A DNA stretch of 64,000 bases, from positions 1 through 64,000 of the forward strand of contig CAZALK010000010.1 in NCBI GenBank assembly GCA_964486045.1, written 5' to 3'. The stretch's first letter is position 1. Every line of letters starts with the position of its first letter. Shown in pieces: positions 50,836-59,088 of this stretch. The notes under the pieces were generated by a model, which saw only the letters and a list, made by a program, of their open reading frames with translations, did not search any database and was not told the DNA's origin. Origin of the DNA: an uncultured archaeon. GTDB taxonomy: Archaea; Asgardarchaeota; Lokiarchaeia; Sigyniarchaeales; SOKP01. The translations under genes and the position numbers were made by a program.

Positions 50836-53208
50836 ATGAATTGCTTATTCTGTGAAAGCCAAAAAATCGATCACACATGCGAAAAATGTAAATCTAGCTT
50901 TTGCATTAATCATATTGCCACTACTGAAATTCATGAATGTAAGAAGCATAATATTATTTATTCAAAAGCAAAGGCAGCAGAAAGAAATTTTAAATGTACT
51001 ATTGTCGAAGATAGTGCGTGTCCTGTTTGTAAATCTCTTTTAAGATTGGAAAGATTATCATCAGGACAATATTATTTAGAATGTACAAATCCTCAGTGTC
51101 CTGATTCATGGAATTCTTATTTGAAAACTCCAGGTTTGTTTTTCCCTTCAAAGGAAAAACTAGCAAGAGAAGCCTTAAGGTACAATCTAATAAGAGGAAA
51201 TAGATTAATTTTATGCGGAAAGAGATTAAAACATATTATAGGGAAAGAAATATGTCCTAACTGCTTTTTGGATTTGTTAAAAAGAGCTACTCTCACTAAT
51301 TTTTCCACAATAATGGATTCTTTTAATATCACAGCAGAACAAATGATAAAATTTATTAATAAATATATAGGGGAAGAGAGAATCTATGGAATAATTGATC
51401 AGAAAAATCAAATGTTCTATTATATATCCCCTGAAATACGTGAAAAATTATTGGCCAAATTCAATGATGTTGGAATTATTAAAGTAGAAGATTTAGCAAC
51501 AATGTTAGATATGAGTAGCGAAATTGCCCGAAATGTAATCTATAAGTTAATTAGCCAATTTCAAATAAAAGGATCATTTTCACAAGACAAAAATGTTTAT
51601 TACACTCAAAAGTACGTAATGGATAGATTGATAAATAGTATTAAGAAGAAGGGAAGGATCTCTTTAAAAAACCTCGCAAATGAATTTAGCCTACCGAAAG
51701 AACTGGTAAAATCATTTTGTGTCAATTTAATGAGAGCAAAAGCCGTCAACGGTTATTTTGCTGATAGAGGTAATGAAGTAATTACTGCTGGTCAAATTCA
51801 TAGGGAGATTAAAGCTTTTGCTAAAAAAGAAGGATTATTTGAGCTTAATAAACTAGCTACAAAATTGAAAATAGCCGTAGAACTAGCCAGAAAAAGTCTT
51901 CATGAATTAATTAAAACCGGTAAAATTAAAGGTATATTTACTCAACGAAGAGAATTCATGACATTTAAGCATTTAGAAACAAAAATAAAAGATCTCGCAA
52001 GAGCTTATAGAACTATGCCCTTAAGAGAGCTATCAAACAGACTTGGAGTTACTGAATCAAGCATAGAGGAGAATCTGGCGCAAATTATTGCAAGAGGAGA
52101 TATTGATGGATATATAGACATGTCGAAAAGAACTTTTGTTGCCTATTCGGTGCCAATGGAGGAGAAACATAGAGTTAAGTCAAAAGTGACCAAACCATCT
52201 AATAATGGTAAGGTTGAAGTAACACGTGCCTATGATTTCATCGGAGGTCAGTTACACATGAAAATTGTAGTAACGAATAAGAGTGATATGGCTATAAATT
52301 CAGTAAAAGTTATCTTAGATGCCCCTTCAAGTTATAACATAAAAACACCTTTGATTAGTATCCCTTTTATTGAAGCAAATAACTCTAGAGGTGTCGATTT
52401 CTACTTAGAGCCAAAAGAGTGTGGAAAATCTTCAATTGGGGGAGATGTGATATACAAAACAGCCTTGGGGGAAAAAAGTACAATTCACATAAAAAAACGC
52501 GATGTTCAGATAAAATGCCCCCTTGTTGTTTCATGTTTATCAACAATCGAGGATGTCCAGCTTTCGATTCAAGATTTACCAAACGATGCACGTGCATTTT
52601 TGGTAGCAGACTTAGACCCTAGATTGGCTTATAGAGCTGCTGTTCGGACATTAAAACGTTTTGACGTAAGCACAGTAACGTCACATGAAGGAAAAGATGC
52701 TAAGGGAAAATATGAAGCAGAGAGTTGGCATTGTTCAGAAGCAAAGATCGGTGGAGGCAGAATAATAACCAGGATTTATGTCTCCGAGGTAAATCAATCA
52801 TTAGAAGTGAGAGTTTGGTGCGGGAGCGCTTCGCAATTAACTGGTTTCCTGGCGAAAGTTATTGAACTGTTATTTGAGGAAATCAACATCATTCGGAAGA
52901 TTAAATCAGAAGAGCGTGAGAAAACTATTGATTTAATGGCTATAACTCAAAATTTAGCTGAAGTTTCAGACTATTGTATGCTTAGATGGAAGGCTCAAAA
53001 CATCAGAACTAAATTACATGACACTTTCGTGCGTGTTAGGAAAGTTATTGGTGATAAAAATGAGGCAGTCCTCGGAAGGTTAGAGTTTTGGCTCACAGAA
53101 TTAAATAAATATGGTAAAGATGAGAAAATCTCTGAAGAAAATGCTGATAAACTTGTTAACGATGTAGAGAACTTCAAAGCTGTCATTGCCCGGTCTATAA
53201 AATTATAA
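50836..53208 (+). CDS. Multidomain protein: N-terminal Cys/His zinc fingers, about five tandem PCI-like winged-helix repeats, Ig-like (adaptin ear) plus platform-like domain, helical tail
   Basis: CxxC...CxxC...CxxH N-terminus. Repeated wing motifs IYGIID, IKGSFS, VNGYFA, IKGIFT, IDGYID. Beta-sandwich VEVTRAYDF...KIVVTN...VDFYLEP, followed by an alpha/beta segment. Confidence 0.7.
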   Translation: MNCLFCESQKIDHTCEKCKSSFCINHIATTEIHECKKHNIIYSKAKAAERNFKCTIVEDSACPVCKSLLRLERLSSGQYYLECTNPQCPDSWNSYLKTPGLFFPSKEKLAREALRYNLIRGNRLILCGKRLKHIIGKEICPNCFLDLLKRATLTNFSTIMDSFNITAEQMIKFINKYIGEERIYGIIDQKNQMFYYISPEIREKLLAKFNDVGIIKVEDLATMLDMSSEIARNVIYKLISQFQIKGSFSQDKNVYYTQKYVMDRLINSIKKKGRISLKNLANEFSLPKELVKSFCVNLMRAKAVNGYFADRGNEVITAGQIHREIKAFAKKEGLFELNKLATKLKIAVELARKSLHELIKTGKIKGIFTQRREFMTFKHLETKIKDLARAYRTMPLRELSNRLGVTESSIEENLAQIIARGDIDGYIDMSKRTFVAYSVPMEEKHRVKSKVTKPSNNGKVEVTRAYDFIGGQLHMKIVVTNKSDMAINSVKVILDAPSSYNIKTPLISIPFIEANNSRGVDFYLEPKECGKSSIGGDVIYKTALGEKSTIHIKKRDVQIKCPLVVSCLSTIEDVQLSIQDLPNDARAFLVADLDPRLAYRAAVRTLKRFDVSTVTSHEGKDAKGKYEAESWHCSEAKIGGGRIITRIYVSEVNQSLEVRVWCGSASQLTGFLAKVIELLFEEINIIRKIKSEEREKTIDLMAITQNLAEVSDYCMLRWKAQNIRTKLHDTFVRVRKVIGDKNEAVLGRLEFWLTELNKYGKDEKISEENADKLVNDVENFKAVIARSIKL

Positions 53209-54147: not shown

Positions 54148-54280
54148 TAGCCCAGCACGGAATTCCGAATAACGATAAGTTCATTAAATTTTCGAACCGT
54201 GGTCCAGGGGTTCAGGGCCCCCGATGCTTGACCTTTACACTATTGAGCAACAATCATGCTCAATTCTACACCACTGGGCT
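54148..54280 (-). tRNA. tRNA-Gln(CUG) with two introns (D-loop ~54236-54265, T-loop 59/60 at 54162-54190)
   Basis: Acceptor stem AGCCCAG/CTGGGCT with A73 (A1-U72, typical of archaeal Gln). D arm GTGTAG...GGTCAAGCAT. Anticodon arm GGGGG-CCCTGAA-CCCCT. T arm CACGG-TTCGAA^T-CCGTG. Removing both inserts gives about 74 nt. Confidence 0.85.
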
Positions 54281-54413
54281 GTATTAATAATTAATTATGA
54301 TTAATAATCTATTTTTTCTAAAAAATTTATGCTATTTGCTGAAATCTTGATATCTAATAGGAGAAAGCCAGCTAAAAATAGCCAATTTTTAATTACAAAT
54401 TTATTGTAAAATA

Positions 54414-54428
54414 GGAAAAATTTATTTA
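54414..54428 (+). promoter_or_regulatory. Putative BRE/TATA promoter for the structured RNA at 54450
   Basis: Purine-rich GGAAAAA followed by TTTATTTA, starting about 30 nt upstream of the 5' stem (G54451). Confidence 0.45.
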
Positions 54429-54449
54429 CTAAGATCGATATTAATTTTA

Positions 54450-54616
54450 TGGATTACACATTCTTAATGGGAGGTCTCGAAAAGGTATCAGTTTCAAAAA
54501 CTAATTTTTAAACCCCGTGAAAGTCTCGGTATCAAGCCGTATTTCGGGAAACTGAAAAAAAAACCTAGTAAACTGTTTTACTTTTTTTACAATTTTTCCT
54601 CCTATGGTGTAATCCA
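54450..54616 (+). ncRNA. Putative structured non-coding RNA of unknown family
   Basis: Nested helices: TGGATTACAC/GTGTAATCCA, ATGGGAGG/CCTCCTAT, GGT/ACC, TCAGTTTC/GAAACTGA, CGGT-atcaa-GCCG, AGTAAA-ctgt-TTTACT. G-U pairs favour the + strand. No long ORF. Confidence 0.6.
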
Positions 54617-54696
54617 CCCTTTCTAAATTAAAATAGTATGTGATATTAGTATATTATCAACAGGTTAGAATTCAGAATATGGAAATCAGGCTTATT

Positions 54697-57177: not shown

Positions 57178-59088
57178 TCACTTTAAGACAACAGTTTCCA
57201 AGTTCAATGGACTTTTTGTTTGTTTTCTTAACTTTTTATGAATCATCGTTGACAAACTCACACATTTAGAAGCTTCACCATGGTTAACTATTATTGATTT
57301 TGGTCTTGGTTGAATTCTTCTTAAAAATTGGGAGATCTGGCTACGAGAAGAATGTCCGCTAAAACCTTCAAGTGTAAATACTTTTAGATTTATCTTTACT
57401 AGTTGTGTGCGTCCTTTTGCATCAATATAGTTAAATTCCTTGAATCCACGATGGATTCTATTCCCAAGAGTGCCTGAAACTTGATAAGAAACGAAGACTA
57501 ATGAATTCTTTGAGTCTTCAGCTAATGCTTTTAAGTATTGAACAGATGGACCACCTATAAGCATTCCACTTGTAGCTAAGATAATACAAGGCCCCCCCTT
57601 TATAATATCAAGTCTTTCAGATTGAGCAGAAACTGTTTCAAAGAAATCACTTAAAAAGGGATTTTTTCCTTGATGTAAAATCTTCTCTCGTAAATCACTA
57701 CTAAGAAAGTCTGGATTAGCTGTGTGAATAGCAGTAGCTTCACTTATTAAACCATCAATAAAAATAGGTACTCTATCAATAAATCCTTTAGTGATATATT
57801 CTTCTAAGACTATTAATAATTCCTGAGCTCGCCCTACAGCAAGAACGGGAATCAAGACTTTTCCACCCCTTTTAAGCGTAGAGTTTAATATCTGTTTAAA
57901 TTCTTTTTCAGATTCTTGCCTACTAGCTATACGATCTTGAGGTCCCCCATACGTTGATTCAATTAATAGGGTTTCCACTCTTGGAAATTTGGTCGCTGCT
58001 TTTTCTAATAATCGAGTTTTCTGAAATTTAAAATCTCCCGTGTATACAAAATTATAGTCACCTTTTCCAAAATGTAAATGTACCATTGAGGATCCTAAGA
58101 TATGGCCTGAATTATGAAGAGTTAATTTAATATCGGGAGCAATATCTGTCACTTTACCCCAAGAGAGAGGAATTGTATGAAGAACAGTGGTTTTAACATC
58201 TCTTTTTGAATATGGTAGGGGAGATCCTTCTTTCTCACAAATTTGAATGAAATCTAATTGCAACATTGTTGCTAAATTTCTCGTAGGTAATGTGCAATAT
58301 ACAGGACCACGATACCCGTATTTAAAAAGAAATGGAACAAGCCCACAATGATCTAAATGAGAATGAGAAATAATAACAGCATCAAGATCTCTTAGTGAGA
58401 ATTCTGGTGCCTCAAAATAGGGGAATTTATCATGAGGACTTCCGACATTCAATCCAACATCCAGTAAAACACTGCTATCTCTTGTCTGCATTAATACACA
58501 AGATCTACCTACCTCTCGAAAACCTCCTAAGGCAGTTAATCTTATGTTCAAGTTCCTAAACAGAGCTGGTCTATGAATTCTCTTACCTATTTGTAATAAA
58601 ATATCTTTTTGCGTTTGTCTCTCTTTTTTCAGCATACCCCTAATTAATTGAATGGTTCTAGATGCTAATGGAGGTGTCCTAATGGTTCTAGGTTGCCAAA
58701 ATGTATTTGCTCTTATATCCTTTAAATTCACTCCTTTTTTACCAATAACAAGCCCAGGCTTCCCTGATTCAATAATGACTTCACCCCGTGTGTGATCAAA
58801 CTCTATTACGCCAATCTCTGCATCCTTACTAACTAAATTTCTAATGTAATCTTCAGTTTCAGTTGGATCCTTGCGTTTGTCTACATTCCATCGGAAAACA
58901 ACACGTTTTCGCATAGTTTTCGCAAGATCTTTAAGCACAGTAGAATTTTCAATAGCTTCTACGTCTGCATTCTCTGAATATACAGCAATCTCAGGACCTT
59001 CGAACTCTATTTTCTTAACTTTAATTTCAGGTGGAAGAATTTCGACAATTTCATTTTTAATCCTTTGTAATTCTCCTTCAAAACTCAT
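57178..59088 (-). CDS. fttA: Beta-CASP ribonuclease aCPSF1 (transcription termination factor FttA)
   Basis: EFEGPE, KH motif KPGLVIGK, LGGFREVGRS, SHSHLDH, GHILGS, ESTYG, GFSGHS, NHGE. Confidence 0.95.
   Translation of the reverse strand: MSFEGELQRIKNEIVEILPPEIKVKKIEFEGPEIAVYSENADVEAIENSTVLKDLAKTMRKRVVFRWNVDKRKDPTETEDYIRNLVSKDAEIGVIEFDHTRGEVIIESGKPGLVIGKKGVNLKDIRANTFWQPRTIRTPPLASRTIQLIRGMLKKERQTQKDILLQIGKRIHRPALFRNLNIRLTALGGFREVGRSCVLMQTRDSSVLLDVGLNVGSPHDKFPYFEAPEFSLRDLDAVIISHSHLDHCGLVPFLFKYGYRGPVYCTLPTRNLATMLQLDFIQICEKEGSPLPYSKRDVKTTVLHTIPLSWGKVTDIAPDIKLTLHNSGHILGSSMVHLHFGKGDYNFVYTGDFKFQKTRLLEKAATKFPRVETLLIESTYGGPQDRIASRQESEKEFKQILNSTLKRGGKVLIPVLAVGRAQELLIVLEEYITKGFIDRVPIFIDGLISEATAIHTANPDFLSSDLREKILHQGKNPFLSDFFETVSAQSERLDIIKGGPCIILATSGMLIGGPSVQYLKALAEDSKNSLVFVSYQVSGTLGNRIHRGFKEFNYIDAKGRTQLVKINLKVFTLEGFSGHSSRSQISQFLRRIQPRPKSIIVNHGEASKCVSLSTMIHKKLRKQTKSPLNLETVVLK

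What the first reader, a model, noticed from the sequence alone, without database searches (positions are those of the whole stretch)
54414..54625. Candidate novel ~165-nt multi-branched ncRNA with its own promoter, divergent from the tRNA
Seen: the ends pair as a 10-bp perfect stem (TGGATTACAC/GTGTAATCCA), continued by an 8-bp stem with a G-U pair (ATGGGAGG/CCTCCTAT). Inside are GGT/ACC, TCAGTTTC/GAAACTGA, CCC/GGG, CGGT/GCCG and AGTAAA/TTTACT helices, all properly nested. A BRE/TATA-like element lies ~30 nt upstream and a pyrimidine run follows. I cannot match it to tRNA, 5S, SRP or RNase P RNA. Inference: an independently transcribed structured RNA of unknown class, possibly Asgard-specific.
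Basis: partly seen in the sequence, partly recalled or inferred. Interest (0 to 1): 0.75.

Follow-up and report, generated by a model that had tools for sequence, protein, structure and literature searches.

The report
New small structured RNA in Lokiarchaeia
This is a real stand-alone gene for a folded, non-coding RNA of about 170 bases that occurs once per genome in one family of Loki-type Asgard archaea and matches no catalogued RNA family; its function is still unknown.

Summary
Window 54450-54618 (+) folds as described (MFE -41.3 kcal/mol, z -3.2; reverse strand z -1.0) and sits between a BRE/TATA promoter and a T-run.

It is single-copy in its 5.2-Mb genome, so it is not a MITE. Covariance models find exactly one copy in 96 of 131 sampled genomes of the same Lokiarchaeia family (9 of 13 genera). 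They find none in 19 genomes of sister families or 125 genomes from the rest of the phylum sample.

The stems covary: 25 of 29 pairs show double changes and 95% of cells are paired, against 43-53% in slid controls.

No Rfam family matches. RNase P, SRP and 5S RNAs lie elsewhere in the genome. There is no C box, no Ro60 gene and no conserved ORF.

The family architecture is a closed rod (P1, P2, usually P3/P4). It carries an A-rich, mostly unpaired apical domain with a U-tract, a near-invariant CCCCGUGA...ACUGA motif and usually a second CCCCGU. This genome has a "long form" with a covarying hairpin inserted in that motif.

Best guess, not shown: a stable trans-acting RNA whose apical motifs bind a protein. 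A base-pairing regulator is the main rival.

The scan apparently noted a probable homologue in another genome (e1-5574990), read there as a fold-back with a micro-ORF.

The parts
54410..54429 (+). BRE/TATA promoter. The TATA-like box is at 54420-54427, which is -30 to -23 from 54450.
   Evidence: Sequence. The same purine-rich BRE plus T-rich TATA sits at the same distance in all 44 homologues.
54436..54446 (+). AT-rich proximal promoter element. In relatives it reads like CATATAWTT at about -13 to -6.
   Evidence: Conserved in the upstream flanks printed. Its role as a promoter element is inferred.
54450..54618 (+). The RNA gene. The transcript most likely starts at 54450/54451 and ends in the T-run after 54618.
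   Evidence: Covariance-model hit at 54450-54618: 117 bits with R1 and 113.9 bits with R2. Fold z = -3.17.
54450..54459 (+). P1, 5' strand. Pairs with 54607-54616.
   Evidence: 10 bp, perfect. 8 of 10 pairs show double compensatory changes in the CM alignment. 7 of 10 do so in an independent MAFFT/RNAalifold run.
54607..54616 (+). P1, 3' strand.
   Evidence: As for the P1 5' strand.
54467..54475 (+). P2, 5' strand. The conserved core is GGAGG at 54470-54474, and it pairs with 54597-54605.
   Evidence: 6 of 6 core pairs covary. Examples are GAAGGA/UCCUUC, GGAGAA/UUCUCC and AGAGGA/UCCUCU.
54597..54605 (+). P2, 3' strand (CCUCC core).
   Evidence: As for the P2 5' strand.
54479..54484 (+). P3, 5' strand. 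Pairs with 54581-54586.
   Evidence: RNAalifold consensus. 5 of 6 pairs change on both sides. It becomes GC-rich (AGAGG/CCUCU) in genus g20. It is not universal and is absent in g12.
54581..54586 (+). P3, 3' strand.
   Evidence: As for the P3 5' strand.
54489..54494 (+). P4, 5' strand (CAGUUU). Pairs with the distal AAACUG at 54570-54575. In this genome an alternative 8-bp pairing is possible with 54548-54555.
   Evidence: The distal pairing covaries: CGGCUU/AAGCUG in L072 and UUUCGGC/GCCGAAA in L075-L077. 6 of 7 pairs show double changes.
54570..54575 (+). P4, 3' strand.
   Evidence: As for the P4 5' strand.
54496..54512 (+). Conserved single-stranded A-run, CUAA, U-tract and AAA. This is an Sm-site-like pyrimidine tract.
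   Evidence: Conserved across 9 genera. U-to-C changes in it are not compensated, so it is not a hairpin (reading).
54513..54520 (+). Near-invariant CCCCGUGA motif.
   Evidence: CCCCGUG is present in 41 of 44 homologues, with column identities of 0.93-1.0.
54514..54548 (+). Long-form insert.
- Closing helix: 54514-54517 with 54545-54548.
- 3-nt bulge UGA: 54518-54520.
- Middle helix: 54521-54524 with 54541-54544.
- Apical helix: 54527-54530 with 54536-54539.
   Evidence: The same bulged-hairpin design, with unrelated stem sequences, occurs in subsets of g1, g12 and g16. It is absent from the short forms of most relatives.
54551..54555 (+). Invariant ACUGA half-motif, followed by an A-run at 54555-54563.
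   Evidence: ACUGA is present in 44 of 44 homologues, 0-45 nt after GUGA.
54563..54569 (+). Degenerate second C-motif. It reads ACCUAGU here, where most relatives have ACCCCGU.
   Evidence: 42 of 44 homologues carry two or more A-run plus CCC motifs, and 28 of 44 carry two exact CCCCGU. G000 and G019 have a decayed copy.
54617..54624 (+). 3' tail (CC) and an oligo-T terminator.
   Evidence: Sequence. A T-run lies within 14 nt downstream in 41 of 44 homologues.

Best explanation
**What it is.** Window 54450-54618 (+) is a stand-alone gene for a stable small non-coding RNA. It is 169 nt here and 106-206 nt in relatives.

**How it is made.** It is transcribed from its own archaeal BRE/TATA promoter. 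Transcription starts at the first base of the terminal helix and stops at the T-run just after that helix.

**How it folds.** The RNA forms a closed rod.
- P1 is 9-10 bp.
- An asymmetric internal loop follows P1.
- P2 has a GGAGG/CCUCC core.
- P3 and P4 are present in most genera.
- The rod hides both ends.
- It carries an A-rich, mostly unpaired apical domain.

**What the apical domain displays.**
- A U-tract.
- The near-invariant bipartite motif CCCCGUGA...ACUGA.
- Usually a second AAACCCCGU.

**The form in this genome.** The two halves of the motif are separated by a covarying hairpin. That hairpin pairs CCCG with CGGG and leaves UGA as a 3-nt bulge.

**How it most likely works (inferred, not shown).** The RNA acts in trans as the RNA partner, scaffold or decoy of an RNA-binding protein.
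- The rod gives stability.
- The conserved unpaired or bulged motifs are the protein-binding platform.
- An Sm-like (SmAP) ring on the U-tract is one concrete candidate.

**Confidence.** About 0.9 that it is a real, selected RNA gene of a new family. About 0.4 for the protein-platform mechanism.
For: **Shown**
- The fold is better than shuffles on the + strand only.
- It is single-copy in its own genome.
- One copy per genome:
  - 69 of 101 family genomes with model R1.
  - 96 of 131 family genomes with model R2.
  - 0 of 19 genomes in sister families.
  - 0 of 125 genomes in other families of the phylum sample.
- Covariation is strong:
  - 95% of cells are paired.
  - 25 of 29 pairs change on both sides.
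  - 0 of 500 shuffles reach the observed values.
  - Slid controls reach only 43-53% paired.
  - P1 is recovered from an independent MAFFT alignment, with 7 of 10 pairs compensatory.
- The promoter sits at a fixed spacing in 44 of 44 homologues and a T-run follows in 41 of 44.
- In G021 and G060 the gene alone is inverted relative to its neighbours, as expected for an autonomous unit.

**Supporting a protein platform rather than an antisense guide**
- The two half-motifs tolerate 0-45 nt between them.
- In long forms the first CCCC is paired internally while UGA stays bulged.
- In G000 the second C-motif has decayed, so no free C-rich seed is left.
- No extended complement exists anywhere in the genome.
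- Pairing to rRNA is no better than for shuffled sequence.
- The apical domain is 44% A and poorly structured.
- Three LSM-domain genes are present in the genome. This shows plausibility only.
Against: - There is no expression data, so the transcript is inferred from promoter, terminator and covariation.
- No partner protein was identified, and no gene co-occurs strictly with the RNA. The adjacent HD phosphohydrolase is found across the whole order, including genus g19, which lacks the RNA. Genus g14 has the RNA without that gene.
- The G-U versus A-C count in the stems (29 vs 20) does not by itself fix the strand.
- The U-tract is Sm-like only loosely. It matches a naive AU3-6R pattern in 29 of 44 homologues.
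- Ten genomes of the same genus lack the locus, so the RNA is dispensable.
- Repeated C-rich unpaired motifs fit a base-pairing sRNA equally well.
Confidence: 0.5

Rival explanations
1. It is a trans-acting, base-pairing regulatory sRNA. The unpaired C-rich motifs (AAACCCCGU, 2-3 copies) act as seeds that pair with G-rich stretches of mRNAs, for example around ribosome-binding sites or start codons. This would resemble the C-rich-motif sRNAs of Firmicutes (RsaE/RoxS) and RBS-targeting archaeal sRNAs.
For: - Two or more A-run plus CCC motifs occur in 42 of 44 homologues, in a largely unpaired A-rich loop.
- In short forms there is no G-rich partner within the RNA, so the motifs would be free.
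- The closed terminal rod is typical of stable sRNAs.
Against: - In long forms, including this window, the first CCCC is sequestered by a conserved internal CGGG.
- In G000 the second motif has decayed.
- No complement longer than the 8-mer exists in the genome.
- The 8-mers occur at chance frequency: 39 observed against about 38 expected by my estimate.
- The ACUGA half-motif and the variable spacing have no role in this model.
Confidence: 0.25
2. It acts locally rather than in trans. One version is a convergent-transcription or antisense regulator of the adjacent HD phosphohydrolase gene. Another is an element tied to expression or processing of the divergent tRNA-Gln(CUG) gene.
For: - The gene order PpiC, tRNA-Gln(-), RNA(+), HD(-) is kept in g1, g12, g13, g16 and g21.
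- The HD gene stays next to the RNA after some rearrangements (L080, L083, L054).
- ACUGA contains the CUG anticodon and P4 contains CAG (reading).
Against: - The RNA has its own promoter and terminator and does not overlap either neighbour.
- Synteny is broken in g14, g17 and g18 while the RNA is kept.
- g19 keeps tRNA-Gln and HD without the RNA.
- g14 has the RNA but no HD orthologue.
- The P4 CAG/CUG covaries away in g13 and g16.
Confidence: 0.07
3. It is a very divergent member of a known RNA class that Rfam models miss, such as 5S rRNA, the SRP Alu part, Y RNA, a C/D or H/ACA guide, or 6S-like RNA.
For: - Rfam models perform poorly in this AT-rich family. 5S rRNA scores below threshold and only the S domain of SRP RNA matches.
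- CUGA is present in all copies.
- Paired ends plus a 3' U-tail resemble Y RNAs.
Against: - RNase P RNA is found at C18 with 147 bits.
- SRP RNA is complete at C9.
- The family's 5S-like genes are at other loci.
- No C box in 44 of 44 homologues.
- No TROVE/Ro60 gene in the genome.
- No Rfam hit for 20 homologues, even at E<=1.
Confidence: 0.03
4. It is not an RNA gene. Instead it is a DNA-level inverted repeat (MITE, integration scar next to a tRNA gene, or protein-binding palindrome) or a small protein-coding gene.
For: - It has terminal inverted repeats next to a tRNA gene.
- Another scan note (e1-5574990) read a probable homologue as a fold-back element with a micro-ORF.
Against: - It is single-copy, with no dispersed copies.
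- Pairing is kept through complete sequence replacement of P1 and P2 in other genera.
- The promoter and terminator are conserved.
- There is no conserved ORF on either strand. The longest ORFs are 3-57 codons, in different frames and encoding different peptides.
Confidence: 0.02

Closest known systems
Y RNAs (Ro60-associated small RNAs of eukaryotes and some bacteria)
   Same: About 100-170 nt. The 5' and 3' ends are paired in a long terminal stem with a short 3' U-tail. There is a large, weakly structured loop thought to bind proteins, and the gene has its own promoter.
   Different: - No TROVE/Ro60 gene in this genome.
- No Rfam Y_RNA match.
- No conserved bulged-C Ro-binding helix.
- The loop is A-rich with C-runs rather than pyrimidine-rich.
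C-rich-motif base-pairing sRNAs (RsaE/RoxS of Firmicutes) and RBS-targeting archaeal sRNAs such as Methanosarcina sRNA41 (both from my own knowledge)
   Same: A stable small RNA that displays two or three copies of an unpaired CCCC-type motif.
   Different: - Different domain of life and no sequence or structure homology.
- Here the first motif is paired internally in long forms.
- No target complementarity was found.
Protein-sequestering or scaffold RNAs (CsrB/RsmZ, 6S RNA)
   Same: A repeated short motif sits on a stable structured carrier, and the RNA acts in trans.
   Different: Only 2-3 motif copies. The motif is unrelated to GGA. There is no two-sided central bubble like that of 6S. The partner protein is unknown.
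Sm-class snRNAs and SmAP/Lsm-bound archaeal sRNAs
   Same: A single-stranded A/U-tract (AAUUUUUAAA type) is flanked by helices. In long forms these are P4 and the inserted hairpin. LSM-domain genes are present in the genome.
   Different: - The tract lacks the canonical G of the Sm site and is UUCUU in several genera.
- There are no other snRNA signature boxes.
- Binding has not been tested.
Archaeal box C/D sRNAs
   Same: A CUGA (D-box-like) motif occurs in all copies, preceded by GUGA.
   Different: - No RUGAUGA C box in 0 of 44 homologues.
- No K-turn geometry.
- Two to three times longer than C/D sRNAs.
- No guide complementarity to rRNA above chance.

Membership tests
Any Rfam 15 family | A covariance-model score at or above the family's gathering threshold. 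| tested here: not met
   - No hit in the 64-kb window.
- The best hits over the element are at E = 2.7-3.4, on the wrong strand.
- 20 homologous loci give only tRNAs.
- 5 loci searched at E<=1 give nothing over the RNA.
5S rRNA | It is the genome's only 5S-like gene, with a three-way junction and the loop C and loop E motifs. | tested here: not met
   - The family's 5S-like genes, carrying the CCGAAC...GGAAGUUAA type motifs, lie at other loci.
- The G000 copy is at C1:82328-82408.
- This RNA is a nested rod, not a three-way junction.
SRP RNA and RNase P RNA | It is the genome's SRP or RNase P RNA. | tested here: not met
   - RNase P RNA is at C18:75104-75427, 147 bits.
- SRP RNA is at C9, about 155.8-156.2 kb, and reads as a full-length gene.
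Box C/D sRNA | A C box (RUGAUGA) and a D box (CUGA) form a K-turn next to a terminal stem, with a 10-12 nt guide upstream of D or D'. | tested here: not met
   - RUGAUGA or UGAUGA in 0 of 44 homologues; CUGA in 44 of 44.
- No rRNA complementarity above shuffled controls.
Y RNA / Ro60 RNP | A Ro60 (TROVE) protein is encoded in the genome, and the terminal stem has a conserved Ro-binding bulged helix. | tested here: not met
   - No match to PF05731 in G000, which is 99% complete.
- P1 is an uninterrupted helix.
MITE / dispersed repeat | Many dispersed copies bounded by terminal inverted repeats and target-site duplications. | tested here: not met
   - Only the locus itself matches in 5.18 Mb. 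The other hits are short A/T-rich strings.
- One CM hit per genome in 96 genomes.
SmAP/Lsm-bound sRNA | Specific binding of an Sm-like ring to a single-stranded U-rich tract. | not testable with these tools
   - The U-tract is conserved.
- Three LSM-domain genes are present.
- Binding needs RIP or EMSA.
Stand-alone archaeal sRNA gene (generic kind) | Its own BRE/TATA promoter about 25-30 nt upstream of the 5' end, an oligo-T terminator, no ORF, and conservation with covariation. | tested here: met
   The transcript itself has not been observed.

The most novel reading that the evidence does not exclude
The RNA is the core of a lineage-specific RNP that has no counterpart in other archaea. Two versions are not excluded.

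- An Sm/Lsm-ring RNP built like a eukaryotic Sm-class small RNA: a U-tract between two helices and a protected terminal stem. This would be an Asgard example of snRNA- or Y-RNA-like RNP architecture.
- A decoy that mimics a conserved rRNA segment. The 23S rRNA of this genome contains ACCCCGUG twice, including the site next to the peptidyl-transferase loop. The decoy would titrate a ribosomal protein, an rRNA-modifying enzyme or an rRNA-directed nuclease.
Probability: 0.1. Interest if true: 0.8.

Novelty: categorically new. Interest (0 to 1): 0.55.

Why it matters
- **Few known RNAs.** Asgard archaea are the closest known prokaryotic relatives of eukaryotes. Almost nothing is known about their non-coding RNAs beyond rRNA, tRNA, SRP, RNase P and guide RNAs.
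- **A defined new family.** This is a cleanly delimited RNA family supported by covariation. It has a defined promoter, defined ends, a consensus structure and a short, near-invariant motif. That gives experimenters a concrete handle for Northern blots, pull-down with mass spectrometry, and SmAP RIP in enrichment cultures or metatranscriptomes.
- **Annotation.** The two covariance models built here can annotate it in about 100 genomes that currently show an unannotated gap at this locus.
- **Limits.** It is confined to one family and is dispensable in some members. It is therefore more likely a lineage-specific regulator or RNP component than a universal machine.
- **Mechanism.** Novelty is at the level of the RNA family. 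The mechanism is unknown.

Tried and rejected
- **MITE or repeat:** rejected. The element is single-copy.
- **5S rRNA:** considered because RF00001 finds nothing in G000. Rejected, because the family has weak-scoring but typical 5S genes at other loci and G000 has one at C1:82328-82408.
- **SRP Alu domain of a split SRP RNA:** considered because only the S domain matched. Rejected, because the C9 locus reads as a full SRP RNA.
- **RNase P:** found elsewhere in the genome.
- **Y RNA:** no Ro60 gene. The La search was uninformative because its control also failed.
- **C/D guide or K-turn:** no C box. The GUGA/CUGA geometry does not fit a K-turn in either short or long forms (reading).
- **H/ACA guide:** the ACA is not conserved.
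- **Hammerhead-like core or BHB processing site:** the motifs do not fit (reading).
- **Antisense guide:**
  - No complement of the core in the genome at up to 2-4 mismatches.
  - Duplex energies with 16S and 23S are no better than for shuffled cores.
  - The 8-mers occur at chance frequency.
- **Micro-ORF:** no conserved ORF on either strand.
- **Functional link to the HD phosphohydrolase:** presence and absence do not match outside simple linkage.
- **Viral or mobile origin:** two 16-mer hits in IMG/VR are not homologues.
- **Homologues outside the family:**
  - None with R2 in the order and phylum samples.
  - The core motif pattern is absent from three closed genomes of the sister family.
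- **Literature:** three full-text searches found no description of such an RNA.

Full report
**1. The observation**

- A perfect 10-bp helix joins 54450-54459 to 54607-54616.
- An 8-bp helix with one G-U pair joins 54467-54474 to 54598-54605.
- Further nested helices lie inside.

RNAfold gives -41.3 kcal/mol on the + strand. That is z = -3.17, and none of 200 dinucleotide shuffles folds as well. The reverse strand is unremarkable, at z = -0.98.

A TATA-like box at 54420-54427, preceded by a purine-rich BRE-like stretch, lies 23-30 nt upstream of 54450. CCCTTTCT follows the last paired base.

Rfam 15 gives nothing over the element, either at gathering thresholds or at E<=10.

**2. Not a repeat; conserved once per genome in one family**

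*Own genome.* The assembly is 5.18 Mb in 45 contigs and 99% complete. Only the locus itself matches; all other hits are short A/T-rich strings. This removes the MITE reading.

*Same genus.* BLAST finds one homologue per genome in 19 of 24 genomes. Most of them lack the central 30 nt of the window's copy.

*Model R1*, built from 18 genus sequences, finds one copy in 69 of 101 family genomes, covering 9 of 13 genera.

*Model R2*, built from 41 sequences of 8 genera:

| Sample | Genomes with one copy |
|---|---|
| Own family | 96 of 131 |
| Three sister families of the order | 0 of 19 |
| Own family, within the phylum sample | 16 of 25 |
| Other families, within the phylum sample | 0 of 125 |

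*Other checks.*
- The core-motif pattern is absent from three closed genomes of the sister family.
- Neighbouring ORFs carry UFL1/DDRGK/PCI and Vps28-like domains. An Asgard, Loki-type host is therefore confirmed.
- The RNA is family-specific, not Asgard-wide.

**3. It is selected as RNA**

On the CM-based alignment of 41 sequences:
- 95% of cells form standard pairs.
- 25 of 29 pairs have changes on both sides.
- 0 of 500 column shuffles reach the observed values.
- Sliding the partners by 1-3 columns drops pairing to 43-53%.
- P1 has 8 of 10 compensatory pairs and P2 has 6 of 6.

That alignment is fitted to the model, so I repeated the test with a plain MAFFT alignment of 31 sequences and RNAalifold. 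P1 was recovered with 7 of 10 compensatory pairs.

Raw sequences show the same thing directly.
- P1 is completely replaced in genera g13 and g14 (UGGUGGAUGU with ACAUCCACCA).
- P2 changes from GGAGGA/UCCUCC to GAAGGA/UCCUUC, GGAGAA/UUCUCC, AGAGGA/UCCUCU or GAAGAU/AUCUUC.

The strand is fixed by three features.
- The promoter: a BRE/TATA box with the same spacing to the first base of P1 in 44 of 44 homologues.
- The terminator: a T-run within 14 nt downstream in 41 of 44.
- Composition: the apical domain is 44% A against 28% U.

The G-U versus A-C count in stems (29 vs 20) is not decisive on its own.

No ORF is conserved on either strand.

**4. Anatomy of the family**

Lengths run from 106 to 206 nt, with a median of 156.

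*Universal parts.*
- P1.
- An asymmetric internal loop of variable sequence.
- P2.
- An apical domain.

*Helices present in most genera.*
- P3 and P4 are present in most genera.
- P4 pairs a UUCAGUU-type strand with a distal AACUGAA.
- P4 covaries as CGGCUU/AAGCUG in L072 and as UUUCGGC/GCCGAAA in L075-L077.
- P3 becomes AGAGG/CCUCU in g20.
- Genus g12 lacks P3 and P4.

*The apical domain*, read 5' to 3':
- An A-run, CUAA and a U-tract. U-to-C changes in the tract are not compensated, so it is single-stranded.
- CCCCGUGA. CCCCGUG is present in 41 of 44 homologues, with column identities of 0.93-1.0.
- A spacer of 0-45 nt.
- ACUGA, present in 44 of 44.
- An A-run.
- Usually a second AAACCCCGU. 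42 of 44 homologues have at least two A-run plus CCC motifs, and some have three.

*Long forms.* These occur in subsets of g1 (including this window), g12 and g16. The spacer is a hairpin built in this order:
- CCCG
- a 3-nt bulge (UGA)
- a variable helix and loop
- CGGG

The helix sequence is unrelated between genera, which is again covariation.

TCAGTTTC/GAAACTGA is a possible alternative pairing that family covariation does not favour. GGT/ACC and AGTAAA/TTTACT are local.

**5. What it is not**

| Candidate | Result |
|---|---|
| RNase P RNA | At C18, 147 bits |
| SRP RNA | At C9. Only the S domain scores, but the locus reads as a full 330-nt RNA with promoter and T-run |
| 5S rRNA | Rfam finds none in G000. 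The family's 5S genes score 25-33 bits, below threshold, at other loci. G000 has a homologue at C1:82328-82408 |
| Box C/D sRNA | No C box in 0 of 44 |
| Y RNA | No Ro60/TROVE gene |
| Any Rfam family | 20 homologous loci give only tRNAs |
| Viral or mobile element | Two IMG/VR hits to a 16-mer of the core are not homologues |
| Published RNA | Three full-text literature searches found no description |

**6. Context**

The usual gene order, kept in five genera, is:
1. PpiC-type isomerase (+)
2. tRNA-Gln(CUG) (-)
3. the RNA (+)
4. HD/HD_assoc phosphohydrolase (-)
5. 4Fe-4S protein

Several observations argue against a functional link to the neighbours.
- Synteny is broken in g14, g17 and g18 while the RNA persists.
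- In G021 and G060 the RNA gene alone is inverted.
- The HD protein occurs throughout the order at 40-45% identity.
  - It is present in genus g19, which lacks the RNA. There a 390-nt spacer holds nothing similar.
  - Its orthologue is missing in g14, which has the RNA.
- Ten g1 genomes lack both the RNA and the HD gene. Four of them were tested and also lack PpiC, so the whole locus is missing there.

The linkage therefore looks like inherited gene order rather than functional coupling. The RNA is dispensable in some members.

**7. How it most likely works**

*Shown.*
- An autonomous gene.
- A rod with both ends sealed.
- A conserved, mostly unpaired apical platform.

*Inferred.* The platform is a binding surface for a trans factor. 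I favour a protein at about 0.4, for these reasons.
- The two half-motifs tolerate any spacing from 0 to 45 nt.
- In long forms the first C-run is paired internally while UGA stays bulged and ACUGA stays free.
- In G000 the second C-motif has decayed, so no free C-rich seed remains.
- The genome holds no extended complement of the core.
- Pairing to rRNA is no better than for shuffled cores.

The U-tract between helices makes an Sm-like ring a concrete candidate, and three LSM-domain genes exist in the genome. That is plausibility, not evidence.

The main rival, at about 0.25, is a base-pairing sRNA that uses the C-rich motifs as seeds. Short forms fit it well.

Local or cis roles, a missed known family, and DNA-level or coding readings together get about 0.1.

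**8. Novelty and verdict**

Every membership test for a known family failed. No paper or Rfam model describes this RNA. It is therefore a new RNA family.
- It has well-defined ends, structure and motifs.
- It is restricted to one Lokiarchaeia family.
- Its function is unknown.

Another first-stage note of this scan (e1-5574990) apparently saw a homologue in a different genome and read it as a fold-back element with a micro-ORF. I could not inspect that sequence. The micro-ORF idea is not supported by the 44 homologues examined here.

Interest is moderate. It is a solid new Asgard ncRNA with a testable motif, but it is lineage-restricted and has no demonstrated role.

Noticed in passing
window 54148-54280 (-): tRNA-Gln(CUG) interrupted by two inserts (introns). 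ARAGORN and Rfam both miss it. The orthologous tRNA-Gln next to the RNA in relatives is intron-less or has one intron, so intron content varies within the family.
   Followed up: partly
G000:C1:82328-82408 (outside the window); L114-L117 in relatives: The 5S rRNA of this Lokiarchaeia family is so divergent that Rfam RF00001 scores it at 25-33 bits, below the 38-bit threshold. Rfam finds nothing in G000. The sister family scores 50-68 bits. Automatic annotation will miss 5S in these genomes.
   Followed up: partly
G000:C9 about 155.8-156.2 kb (L101:1460-1760, - strand): The SRP RNA matches the archaeal Rfam model only over the S domain: 47.6 bits against a threshold of 96.5. The locus nevertheless reads as a full RNA of about 330 nt with a TATA box and a T-run.
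   Followed up: partly
G000:C1 about 570.6-574.5 kb and about 626.4-627.9 kb: The 23S and 16S rRNA genes are about 50 kb apart, so they are unlinked. The 23S contains ACCCCGUG twice, including next to the peptidyl-transferase loop. The resemblance to the RNA's core motif is probably chance.
   Followed up: partly
L054 (G021) and L053 (G060): In two genomes of the same genus the RNA gene alone is inverted relative to its HD, tRNA-Gln and PpiC neighbours.
   Followed up: no
L120:2680-3100 (G066, genus g19): Genus g19 keeps tRNA-Gln and the HD gene. The 390-nt spacer between them has no recognisable copy of the RNA. It may hold a different or very divergent element.
   Followed up: no
window 54627-54670: A short inverted repeat (TGATA...TATCA type) sits in the gap between the RNA's terminator and the stop codon of the converging HD gene. 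It is conserved in genus g1 and similar in g16. It could be a shared terminator hairpin or a protein-binding site.
   Followed up: no
window 50836-53208 (+) and 57178-59088 (-): A 790-aa protein combines PCI, DDRGK, UFL1-like and Vps28-like domains. A standard FttA/aCPSF1 termination factor lies 2.5 kb from the RNA.
   Followed up: no
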